Positions 14,115-16,526 of a stretch of 64,000 nt of DNA are shown one piece after another. The notes under the pieces were generated by a model, which ran no database searches, was not told the origin of the DNA, and was given only the letters and a program-made list of their open reading frames with translations. Location: assembly GCF_988243305.1 (NCBI RefSeq), contig NZ_OZ547136.1; one strand, 5' to 3'. Positions within the stretch are counted from its first letter, which is position 1; each line of letters begins with the position of its first letter. The position numbers were made by a program, and so were the translations under genes.

Positions 14115-14470
14115 TGAAGTGGTCAACAAAAACTGGCCACCGCGTTAGAGTTTTTCCAGTATCGATTTTCCGATTCGTTTGGGGGTAACCCACCATTATA
14201 TTCGTGCGGTCTTAGTGCGCTGTAATATCCAACGATATAGTCCGTTATGGCGTGAGCTGCCTCGCTGAAGCTTACGTAACCCACCACCGGCATCCATTCG
14301 TTCTTCAGACTCCTGAAGAAGCGTTCCATTGGGCTGTTATCTCAGCAGTTTCCGCGCCGGCTCATACTCTGCGTGATCTGGTATCCGCGGCCTGAAGAGA
14401 TAAAGGCGATAATAAAACAGACATCAGTGTCAGTGACAGCAAGGACGGACAGCGCCGGAATAAGCTTTGT
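14115..14470 (-). mobile_element. IS3-family insertion sequence remnant (3' end; terminal repeat TGAAGTGGTCAAC..., degenerate transposase orfB)
   Basis: 68-aa C-terminal transposase fragment ([11 protein letters not shown]...RPHEYNGGLPP) whose stop lies inside the terminal repeat; upstream frame carries the IS3 motif QSMSRRGNC then a stop; specific IS not identified. Confidence 0.5.
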
Positions 14471-15103
14471 TCCTCAGCCCTCTCGTTCCTGCAACATAAT
14501 TTTCCAGTCAAACGAAAAACCTTTTATTCATGTCATACCAACAATCACCAGCCTCCTGACGATACCTCCCACCATGTTTTGCGATGGCACGCTACCGCCT
14601 TTCCGGTATTTACCCACATCAACCGGTACCAGAATGCTGAGTAATAAATCTGCCAATTTTTAGCTGACTTAATTTTGATCATTATAGAATAATGATCTGA
14701 ACTACAGCAATATGGCAGATTTATCGATCGATATAATACAAATGAACAGTTCTTTATTCTGACTAATATCGCAAAAACAGCACATTACAAAATTTATAAC
14801 CATAATTAATGGAAAAGTGCAGAAAATTATTCCACTGAATGCTTTTAATACAGTTGGTTAGCTTAAAAAATAGCAATTTTTGATTTCAGTCATTGAAAAT
14901 TGCAATGCGTGACGATTCAACAGCATTTAAGTGAGTTTCAGGATATGGGAAGGACATGAAAAGAGGAGCGCAATAAAATACACAGGAAGAAGGGGAAAAT
15001 GTTTCGTAAAAACAGAAAATTAACAGCGCACATCAGGAAACGCAGTCTCCTGATTCAGTGCTACCACATGAAAATTTAGTTAACTGTTACCGTACTAAAA
15101 TTT

Positions 15104-15295
15104 ATGTCAGAAGATGTTCCATTACCGAAAGTCAATCAGCGATACAAAGACGATCATGGAGCACTGGCCACCGTAACCAGCGTCGAAGAAACCCGAGTGG
15201 TTTTTATGCGGGAGGGTTATCCGCATCCCTGTATGCGACCGATGTACAACTTTCTGGGAAAATTCAAACCCGACCCCCGGGAAGAAACAGAATAA
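15104..15295 (+). CDS. Small hypothetical protein (63 aa)
   Basis: Isolated short ORF in AT-rich intergenic region; no supporting homology. Confidence 0.2.
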   Translation: MSEDVPLPKVNQRYKDDHGALATVTSVEETRVVFMREGYPHPCMRPMYNFLGKFKPDPREETE

Positions 15296-15676
15296 AACGA
15301 AATCCCTGCCGGCAATCACACTGCCTGATGGCAGCATAATCCACTTATTAATTCTCATCCCCGGAGACAAGCCCTGAAAACCACTCCGGGTGTTCATTGT
15401 ATGCCGTGTTCAGCGCATCCCAGGAAACGTTGATATAAAAGCTGTCCTGCAATTTGCGGGTAACCACCTCTACCACCCGGTTCCGGTTATACGCCAGTCC
15501 GGCATAACCTCTCTCTGCCAGCCACTCATTCAGTTCATGTTCCAGAGACAGATTGATAATATCGTAATCGGACCTTGCCATTCCCGTTTCCTTAGCACAT
15601 GTTTTCAGGCACGGGGATAAAGTATAAAGAATGTCGTACTGCTGCTGCCAGAGCAATATTCCCCCTGATGGTTGTA

Positions 15677-16308
15677 TCAGAGATGGTATGCCGGTATTTT
15701 GCGGGTTGTTCCCGTCAGGTTATCGTGCACCTCCACGGTCGTTGTCACCACCGGCATTCCGCTCTGTCTTAGTCTCAGGACATCAGCCGCAATACGCTGA
15801 CTGCCAGACCAGAACAGGCCGTCCAGTGCGGTCACCAGTAACCCCGCCTCCAGCGCATACTTCAGCCGTTCACGGGGCGCTTTCACTTCCCGGGCAACCT
15901 GCTGATATGGCAATGATGTGTTTTCATTCCCAACCACGCGGCGAATACGGTGAGACAGATGATACCGGTATGTATCCGGCACACTGGAAAGACTGGCCTT
16001 CAGGCTGTACACGCAGCCAAAGCGTTTATCGTTGAACACCACATTTTTCTGGCTGATGTCCCATTCTTCACGCAGCACAGCAATCAGTTGTGGTGTCCGG
16101 GTAAGCAGAAAGGCAATTCAAAACAGGTGACGTAATCCACATTCAGCAGGGCAATACGCGGCCGTTTTTCTGATCCATTTACAATCGGATGTGGGCGAAC
16201 ATTATTATCATTATCTGAAAATCTCCCCCTATGGCATGTTTGCCATGGCGGAGAGTCATTGAAGCCTTTATGAGGGGTGAATACATTCCTGAAGCAGTGC
16301 AGTGGCAA
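15677..16308 (-). pseudogene. Degenerate gene remnant (two adjacent ORFs in different frames)
   Basis: 133-aa and 74-aa ORFs abut at 16078-16084 in different frames; no recognised domain. Confidence 0.2.
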
Positions 16309-16526
16309 AAAAACACCCCGCTTTTATTCATTCTCTGACAATAAATATTGAGTTTGACTGTATCAGATTTTAGGTATTTCCTAGAAAAGGACTTTTTTGC
16401 TCAAGGCAAAACAATACCGCAAAATAATCCTTCACCTGCACAAACATCCTCAGTCCATTAAAAAAATCGCCATGTTAGGTTAACGACATCAAATTTGGTC
16501 GTTTACCATGATTAAGGTAGTTACAC

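What the first reader, a model, noticed from the sequence alone, without database searches (positions are those of the whole stretch)
14115..16500. IS3-family remnant and gene debris form the left boundary of the GRM island
The IS terminal repeat TGAAGTGGTCAAC... with the transposase stop inside it, plus degenerate transposase frames (QSMSRRGNC motif followed by a stop), is followed by ~2 kb of AT-rich sequence with only short or broken ORFs before the first microcompartment gene. Together with the IS2 fragment at 39482 this frames the GRM locus as an acquired block.
Basis: partly seen in the sequence, partly recalled or inferred. Interest (0 to 1): 0.3.

Follow-up and report, generated by a model that had tools for sequence, protein, structure and literature searches.

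The report
Dead IS911 end beside grp island
The flagged stretch is a dead 271-base end of the common E. coli jumping gene IS911, left by an old deletion, and it lies 1.8 kb outside the real left edge of the propanediol microcompartment (grp) genes, so this is ordinary genomic-island mosaicism.

Summary
Window 14115-14385 is the right end of IS911 (IS3 family), 99.6% identical to a full copy. It has an intact terminal repeat, the orfB stop inside that repeat, and one TGG->TGA change giving QSMSRRGNC*.

The remnant is not the grp boundary. Sequence 14386-16172 is a conserved island backbone (TpsB start, DUF4222 gene, ECs1377-family gene). About 1,200 complete E. coli genomes carry it, and most of them lack grp.

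grp-specific DNA starts at 16173-16175, inside the last 29 codons of a ferric ABC-transporter ATPase gene (fbpC/afuC). That gene sits directly upstream of grpA in Atlantibacter and in E. coli L73.

Of 5,426 complete genomes, 538 carry grpM and 537 share this left junction. Only 357 carry the IS911 scar.

The scar marks an IS911 insertion followed by a ~15-kb deletion of a two-partner-secretion/CDI-like locus that is still present in strain SC422.

The IS2 fragment (39482-39833) is real. It abuts an unrelated RND/TetR module and joins the backbone at an 8-bp microhomology.

The whole region is nested in a ~71-kb tRNA-Phe island whose ends lie outside the window. Ordinary, low interest.

The parts
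12235..14022 (-). NERD + UvrD-type helicase gene (PGAP: '3'-5' exonuclease'). It is the left neighbour of the IS911 remnant. Its start codon lies 93 bp from the IS end.
   Evidence: ORF list. Pfam NERD, UvrD-helicase and UvrD_C. PGAP annotation of the identical sequence. This module is present at >=80% coverage in 515 genomes.
14115..14385 (-). IS911 right-end remnant. It holds the right terminal inverted repeat (starting at 14115) and the last 87 codons of orfB. The orfB stop is at 14123-14125. A TGG->TGA nonsense change lies at 14342-14344. The left repeat, orfA and about 980 bp of the element are missing.
   Evidence: 270/271 identities to a full IS911. PGAP label IS911 on the full copy. 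Translation. Pfam rve_3 and rve_2 C-terminal piece only. No other IS911 piece in the window.
14382..14385 (.). 4-bp microhomology (TATC) where the broken IS911 is fused to the TpsB-like gene.
   Evidence: Three-way alignment of the window, IS911 (L003) and strain SC422 (L071).
14386..14424 (-). First 13 codons (MSVLLSPLSLQAA) of a POTRA/TpsB (cdiB-like) transporter gene. The rest of the gene is deleted.
   Evidence: Homology to the intact or longer gene in L004 and SC422.
14425..15103 (.). AT-rich (about 38% GC), mostly non-coding region upstream of the TpsB gene. It contains a small annotated ORF at 14528-14656. It is part of the conserved island backbone.
   Evidence: GC content. 96% identity to SC422 and 94.7% to strain 2313. 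No Rfam hit and no promoter or terminator excess.
15104..15295 (+). Intact DUF4222 gene. Part of the backbone.
   Evidence: Pfam PF13973, E 2.5e-21. Annotated in every related island examined.
15348..15581 (-). Conserved small hypothetical gene (77 aa in PGAP). Part of the backbone.
   Evidence: PGAP annotation. Present in grp-less islands.
15677..16172 (-). ECs1377-family pseudogene. About 40 N-terminal codons were cut off by the grp insertion, and this lineage also has a frameshift.
   Evidence: NCBIfam NF052300: profile positions 61-190 in one frame and 24-49 in another, against 1-190 in the intact 207-aa L004 gene. Not frameshifted in ECONIH1 or strain 3150.
16173..16262 (+). True left end of the grp DNA. 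It holds the last 29 codons plus the stop of a ferric ABC-transporter ATPase gene (fbpC/afuC).
   Evidence: 19/27 aa identical to the C-terminus (residues 323-347 of 347) of the Atlantibacter sp. RC6 ATPase, which lies directly upstream of grpA. 85% nucleotide identity to the fbpC 3' end of E. coli L73, starting exactly at 16175. Backbone homology ends at 16172.
16263..16526 (+). grp upstream (promoter) region, carried in with the locus.
   Evidence: Homology to the Atlantibacter, Citrobacter and Silvania loci from about 16383, and to L73 from 16175.
16527..17645 (+). grpA, the first gene of the grp locus. It encodes an alcohol dehydrogenase, not a shell protein.
   Evidence: PGAP annotation of the identical sequence. 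87-92% aa identity to Atlantibacter and Citrobacter homologues.
16173..37069 (+). The grp-specific acquired segment (about 20.9 kb, grpA-grpS). It includes a broken group II intron reverse transcriptase at 31039-32127.
   Evidence: Junction at 16172 in 537 genomes and at 37069/37070 in 528 genomes.
37070..39481 (-). Unrelated cargo remnant: the 3' part of an RND efflux pump gene, a TetR regulator and a truncated AraC-type HTH gene.
   Evidence: 92% nucleotide identity to E. coli loci L072 and L073, and 88% to C. koseri L068, where it is not next to grp. Pfam ACR_tran 787-1020/1021 and TetR_N.
39482..39833 (+). IS2-like 5' fragment (left terminal repeat plus most of orfA). The repeat faces the RND gene. 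The inner break is fused to the island backbone at the 8-bp microhomology CGCCTGCT (about 39826-39833).
   Evidence: This junction is present in 524 genomes.

Best explanation
The flagged element is a non-functional 271-bp right end of IS911. It lies inside a mosaic E. coli genomic island integrated at a tRNA-Phe gene.

Most likely history of the scar: IS911 inserted after ...AAAAAAC (14114), in the intergenic region upstream of a NERD/UvrD helicase gene. A later illegitimate deletion then ran from inside the IS to codon 13 of a TpsB (cdiB-like) gene. The two ends were joined at the 4-bp microhomology TATC. That deletion removed about 980 bp of IS911 and about 15 kb of a two-partner-secretion/CDI-like locus.

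The remnant cannot transpose. It has no left terminal repeat and no orfA, it lacks both aspartates of the DDE domain, and it carries a nonsense codon. It has no part in grp acquisition.

The grp locus is a separate block of about 20.9 kb (16173-37069). It was captured essentially once into an ECs1377-family gene of the island backbone. It was cut out of a donor in which grpA follows a ferric ABC transporter operon, as in Atlantibacter.

Shown: the identities, the breakpoints, the junction counts and the synteny. Inferred: the order of events and the single-capture history.
For: - IS911 identity and extent.
- Flanks in strain SC422: the left flank (window 11035-14112) and right flank (14382-15666) are 92% and 96% identical to the window. 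They lie 15,005 bp apart in that genome. The gap holds TpsB, a lysine acyltransferase, FHA-type genes, orphan toxin/immunity pieces and a GIY-YIG nuclease.
- The insertion point is clean, and the TATC microhomology is visible in the alignment.
- The backbone module 14386-16172 is shared with grp-less islands.
- Junction counts in 5,426 genomes: grpM 538, junction at 16172 in 537, junction at 37070 in 528, IS2/backbone junction in 524, IS911 junction in 357.
- An fbpC remnant lies at the left end of the grp DNA. The fbpC-grpA synteny is seen in Atlantibacter and in E. coli L73.
- The same segment is found at pheU (AR_0114) and at pheV (ECONIH1).
- Island ends in AR_0114 are tRNA-Phe and a 22-bp direct repeat, about 70.9 kb apart.
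Against: - The direction of change (deletion in this lineage versus insertion in SC422) is inferred from one comparator and from the presence of truncated gene ends. It does not rest on a phylogeny.
- The left flank is only 92% identical to SC422, so SC422 is a relative and not the ancestor.
- I could not show that every one of the 357 genomes with the IS911 junction also carries grp.
- The right end of the donor grp DNA (36961-37069) is not resolved. The Atlantibacter loci fetched stop at grpM.
- The nearest non-E. coli grp locus is only 89% identical, so the true donor is unknown.
Confidence: 0.85

Rival explanations
1. The IS911 remnant and the following 2 kb of debris are the left edge of the acquired grp block. 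Together with the IS2 fragment they frame the block, implying IS-mediated or composite-transposon-like acquisition.
For: An IS fragment lies on each side of grp within a few kb. grp is accessory DNA. 357 of roughly 537 grp-positive genomes do carry the IS911 scar.
Against: About 1.8 kb of backbone, shared with roughly 670 grp-less genomes, separates the IS911 scar from grp DNA. About 180 grp-positive genomes lack the scar. The two IS fragments belong to different elements, and neither abuts grp DNA. The flanks of the scar map to a TPS/CDI locus.
Confidence: 0.05
2. The scar was not made in place. The IS911-truncated junction arose in another island or strain and was imported into grp-bearing islands by homologous recombination between related tRNA-Phe islands.
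For: The backbone next to grp differs by about 4-5% between grp-positive lineages while the grp genes stay at >=99% identity. The same segment sits at both pheU and pheV. Modular recombination is documented for the pheV island (PMC11537424).
Against: This changes only where the event happened, not what the scar is. No grp-less genome with the IS911 junction was identified. That was not tested exhaustively.
Confidence: 0.3
3. The remnant has been co-opted. The deletion placed the NERD/UvrD helicase gene downstream of the TpsB promoter and the IS911 end, so the scar now matters for expression of that gene.
For: The TpsB start, the orfB remnant and the helicase gene are all on the minus strand in series, with only 93 bp between the IS end and the helicase start. 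The arrangement is kept in 357 genomes.
Against: No promoter or terminator signal above the shuffled expectation. No RNA family hit. The helicase module also exists without the IS in other genomes. No expression data are available.
Confidence: 0.1

Closest known systems
IS911 (IS3 family, IS3 group)
   Same: 99.6% nucleotide identity over 271 bp. Same right terminal repeat, with the orfB stop inside it. Same C-terminal OrfB sequence.
   Different: Only the last ~22% of the element is present. There is no left repeat, no orfA and no frameshift site. Only the C-terminal end of the rve domain remains, and it carries a nonsense codon. It is a fragment, not a mobile member.
Mosaic tRNA-Phe genomic islands of E. 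coli with P4-type integrases (GI-pheV / PAI-pheU; PMC11537424, PMC7545054)
   Same: tRNA-Phe attachment, integrase and a direct repeat of the tRNA 3' end. Modules (ibr, yee/CP4-44-like, defence cargo) are separated by IS fragments. Module gain and loss occur by deletion and recombination.
   Different: This island variant carries grp as one module. I found no paper describing its junctions.
grp locus (glycyl-radical 1,2-propanediol microcompartment) of uropathogenic E. coli CFT073 (Lundin et al. 2020, J Bacteriol, cited in PMC11724981; the paper itself is not held)
   Same: PGAP names grpA-grpS on sequence identical to the window.
   Different: The finding concerns the flanks, not the locus. 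The fbpC remnant and the Atlantibacter-like synteny at the left end were worked out here.
Two-partner secretion / contact-dependent inhibition loci with orphan toxin-immunity modules
   Same: In SC422 the region missing from the window holds a ShlB/FhaC-type transporter, a lysine acyltransferase, hemagglutinin-repeat genes, a VENN pre-toxin fragment and a DUF596 gene.
   Different: The window keeps only 13 codons of the transporter gene and a 133-bp 3' fragment (11035-11167). The locus is gone.

Membership tests
IS911 / IS3 family insertion sequence | High nucleotide identity to a reference IS911 copy | tested here: met
   270/271 identities to L003 1503-1773, a copy annotated as an IS911-family transposase.
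IS911 / IS3 family insertion sequence | Terminal inverted repeats at both ends | tested here: not met
   The right repeat is present at 14115. The left repeat (TGAAGTGGCACACTGAATTTGGCC in L003) is absent from the whole window.
IS911 / IS3 family insertion sequence | orfA and orfB joined by programmed -1 frameshifting | tested here: not met
   Only the last 87 codons of orfB remain, with an internal TGA.
IS911 / IS3 family insertion sequence | Complete DDE (rve) catalytic domain | tested here: not met
   Only C-terminal pieces match: rve_3 positions 19-67/67 and rve_2 positions 1-53/56.
IS911 / IS3 family insertion sequence | Short target-site duplication flanking both ends | not testable with these tools
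   One end of the element is deleted, so no duplication can be read.
   IS911 is on the left and IS2 on the right, one fragment of each. 1.8 kb of shared backbone separates IS911 from grp. The IS2 repeat abuts an RND pump remnant, not grp.
tRNA-associated genomic island with P4-type integrase | Integration next to a tRNA gene, with an adjacent tyrosine integrase | tested here: met
   tRNA-Phe and an integrase lie 4.4 kb left of the window start in AR_0114 (pheU, between dicD and cadC). The same holds at pheV (yqgA side) in ECONIH1.
tRNA-associated genomic island with P4-type integrase | Direct repeat of the tRNA 3' end at the far boundary | tested here: met
   The 22-bp sequence TCGATTCCGAGTCCGGGCACCA is repeated at record 2196456 of AR_0114, just before cadC.
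tRNA-associated genomic island with P4-type integrase | Variable presence among strains | tested here: met
   grpM is in 538 of 5,426 complete genomes. Backbone modules occur in other combinations.
grp (glycyl-radical propanediol microcompartment) locus | Glycyl radical diol dehydratase with its activase, shell proteins and the aldehyde/alcohol dehydrogenase and phosphotransacylase set | tested here: met
   grpA-grpS are named by PGAP on sequence 99.98% identical to the window. This rests on annotation only. No function was tested here.

The most novel reading that the evidence does not exclude
All but two or three of the 538 grp-positive complete E. coli genomes descend from one capture event. 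A ~20.9-kb fbpC'-grp segment came either from an Atlantibacter-like enterobacterial chromosome or from an integrase-borne fbpC-grp element like the one in strain L73. It landed in an ECs1377-family gene of a P4-integrase tRNA-Phe island. It has since spread between the pheU and pheV sites. The IS911 scar records a later, unrelated 15-kb loss of a toxin-delivery locus next door.
Probability: 0.6. Interest if true: 0.3.

Novelty: already known. Interest (0 to 1): 0.15.

Why it matters
It matters little beyond correct annotation. The IS911 fragment is already called a transposase pseudogene by the standard annotation pipeline. The grp locus and the mosaic tRNA-Phe islands are both described.

The useful outcome is a corrected map. 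The grp block starts at 16173, not 14115, and opens with a relic of a ferric-transporter gene that points to an Atlantibacter-like source. Nearly all grp-positive E. coli share one set of junctions. That gives a simple PCR or k-mer marker for the locus and a starting point for dating its spread in extraintestinal and multidrug-resistant lineages.

Tried and rejected
- Rfam scan of 13900-16700 at E<=1: no hits.
- Promoter and terminator scan: counts no higher than in shuffled sequence.
- Search for further IS911 or IS2 pieces, or any repeat >=100 bp, in the window: none. A composite element is therefore rejected.
- I first assumed that TetR and the RND fragment came in with grp. I rejected this because the same module occurs without grp in E. 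coli and C. koseri.
- Lundin et al. 2020 could not be read because it is not held. Literature searches for an Atlantibacter origin or for a description of the grp junctions found nothing relevant.
- Two coordinate or frame errors of mine were corrected (then 37 and 39). An early off-by-one for the IS start was also corrected: 14116 became 14115.
The right end of the donor DNA is therefore bracketed only to 36961-37069.

Full report
**Where the window is.** The window is E. coli DNA. Positions 1-36600 are 99.98% identical to strain AR_0114 (NZ_CP021732), and many other complete genomes match the queried stretches at 100%. In AR_0114 the window lies wholly inside an island. The island starts at a tRNA-Phe gene, followed by a tyrosine integrase, between dsbD/dicD and cadC. 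This is the pheU site, 4.4 kb to the left of window position 1. The island ends at a 22-bp direct repeat of the tRNA 3' end just before cadC, about 70.9 kb away. PGAP names grpA-grpS on this sequence.

**The observation.**
- Window 14115-14385 (271 bp) matches the first 271 bp, counted from the right end, of a 1,249-bp IS911 copy. There are 270/271 identities and no gaps.
- The terminal repeat TGAAGTGGTCAACAAAAACTGGCC begins at 14115.
- The orfB stop codon (14123-14125, minus strand) lies inside that repeat.
- The minus-strand translation is [30 protein letters not shown]....
- The stop is the single difference from IS911, a TGG->TGA change at 14342-14344.
- No other IS911 sequence exists in the window.
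- IS911-like sequence is found in 4,414 of 5,426 complete E. coli genomes, so this is a fragment of a very common element.

**The '2 kb of AT-rich debris'.** This description is only partly right.
- GC is 37.7% in 14386-15103 and 38.4% in 16173-16526, but 51.1% in 15104-16172.
- The stretch contains an intact DUF4222 gene (Pfam E 2.5e-21) and a conserved small gene.
- It also contains an ECs1377-family gene that lacks its N-terminus and, in this lineage, is frameshifted.
- This stretch is not local decay. Window 14383-16172 is 94.7% identical to a grp-less island in strain 2313 (L004) and 96% identical to strain SC422.
- At least 80% of 14386-16500 is present in 1,207 genomes, although only 538 genomes have grpM.
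- It is therefore a conserved backbone module of this island family.

**The true left edge of the grp DNA.**
- Homology to grp-less islands stops at 16172.
- A 300-bp probe across that point is fully covered in 537 genomes. About 1,100 further genomes match only its left half, ending at 16172-16176.
- From 16173 the plus strand encodes IHLQSDVGEHYYHYLKISPYGMFAMAESH*. Nineteen of 27 aligned residues match the extreme C-terminus of the ferric ABC-transporter ATPase that lies directly upstream of grpA in Atlantibacter sp. RC6.
- In Atlantibacter hermannii and sp. RC6 the order is MFS transporter, binding protein, permease, ATPase, then grpA. The grp DNA there is 89% identical to the window from 16383 onward.
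- Two E. coli genomes (L73 and PK5074) carry a divergent grp locus, about 90.6% identical to the window across the aligned grp region. Their full-length fbpC pseudogene precedes grpA, and nucleotide homology to the window starts exactly at 16175.
- The acquired grp DNA therefore begins inside the last ~85 nt of fbpC/afuC. The left junction is resolved to 16172-16175.

**The right side.**
- Homology to the L73 grp locus runs to 36960.
- From 37070 to 39472 the window is 92% identical to an RND pump / TetR / AraC-HTH module. In other E. coli and in C. koseri this module sits next to unrelated genes.
- The 37069/37070 junction is present in 528 genomes.
- At 39482 an IS2-like left end begins, with its terminal repeat facing the truncated RND gene.
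- The IS2 is broken inside orfA. It is joined to the island backbone at the 8-bp microhomology CGCCTGCT near 39826-39833. This junction is present in 524 genomes.
- Relative to strain 2313, window 16173-39822 replaces 651 bp of backbone.
- So the IS2 fragment is real and sits at a module junction, but it touches the RND remnant and not grp.

**What the IS911 remnant really marks.**
- Its outer (repeat) end is inserted cleanly after ...AAAAAAC at 14114. This lies in the intergenic region upstream of a NERD/UvrD helicase gene.
- Its inner end is fused, across the 4-bp microhomology TATC (14382-14385), to codon 13 of a POTRA/TpsB gene whose start codon is at 14424.
- In strain SC422 the two flanks are 15,005 bp apart. 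The intervening DNA holds a ShlB/FhaC-type transporter, a toxin-activating lysine acyltransferase, filamentous-hemagglutinin-type genes including one of 7.3 kb, a VENN pre-toxin fragment, a DUF596 gene and a GIY-YIG nuclease pseudogene.
- The simplest history is an IS911 insertion followed by an illegitimate deletion that removed most of the IS and a two-partner-secretion/CDI-like locus.
- The junction is found in 357 genomes, with the same flanks on both sides. About one third of grp-positive genomes therefore lack it.
- AR_0011 is one such genome. There the TpsB 5' fragment continues into a VasL fragment, and a Qat defence system lies further left.
- The region between ibrA and the TpsB start is thus a variable hotspot, independent of grp.

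**Spread.** The same helicase / IS911 scar / backbone / grp segment occurs at pheU in AR_0114 and at pheV (next to yqgA and speC) in ECONIH1, with different integrase alleles and different left-hand cargo. grpM is >=99% identical in 535 of 538 genomes. The adjacent backbone differs by up to about 5% between lineages. This fits one capture of grp followed by recombination among related islands, the pattern reported for the pheV island (PMC11537424).

**Verdict.** The general idea that grp is an acquired block also holds. The specific claim that the IS911 remnant plus debris form the left boundary fails. The boundary is 1.8 kb further right and has no IS. The 'debris' is shared backbone. The scar belongs to a different event. 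The chromosomal island ends lie outside the window. Nothing here departs from known kinds of elements, so interest is low.

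Noticed in passing
L075 (E. coli L73, NZ_CP033378 680723-699490); also strain PK5074: A second, divergent grp locus (about 90.6% nucleotide identity to the window) lies next to nfeF. It sits behind its own tyrosine integrase and a full-length but broken fbpC gene. grpS and grpR are inverted directly after grpO, and no intron remnant was seen in the part of the locus examined (it ends inside grpR). This looks like an independent acquisition and a possible intermediate carrier of fbpC'-grp.
   Followed up: partly
window 31039-32127: Two adjacent ORFs between grpO and grpP carry halves of a group II intron reverse transcriptase/maturase (RVT_1 and GIIM). This is a broken intron inside the grp locus. 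It is annotated in all the grp-positive genomes I looked at.
   Followed up: partly
window 9634-14114: The stretch between ibrA and the IS911 scar is a variable cargo slot. The window holds VasL and ImpA_N type VI fragments and a NERD/UvrD helicase. Strains 2313 and SC422 hold an AAA protein at the ibrA-proximal end of the slot (SC422 also has the ImpA_N fragment and the helicase). AR_0011 holds a Qat anti-phage system with KAP NTPase and SLATT genes.
   Followed up: partly
window 43123-47495: This is a pseudouridine-utilisation-like module: Indigoidine_A-type glycosidase, nucleoside transporter and PfkB kinases. It is 94% identical to an E. coli contig (L072) where it lies near the same RND/TetR module. 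The two may therefore be remnants of one older cargo region split by later events. AR_0114 differs from the window across 42677-48877.
   Followed up: no
L068/L069 (Citrobacter koseri): C. koseri carries the intact RND pump / TetR / AraC-HTH module inside its own integrase-bearing island next to dsbD/cutA. This is the position equivalent to pheU, which suggests that cargo is shared between species at this site.
   Followed up: no
E. coli genome search with grpM: One of the 538 grpM matches lies on a plasmid record, and three matches are only 90-95% identical. The plasmid copy was not examined.
   Followed up: no
window 15677-16172 compared with L065/L067: The frameshift in the truncated ECs1377-family gene is lineage-specific. 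ECONIH1 and strain 3150 have the same truncation point but no frameshift, so the truncation (the grp insertion) came before the frameshift.
   Followed up: partly
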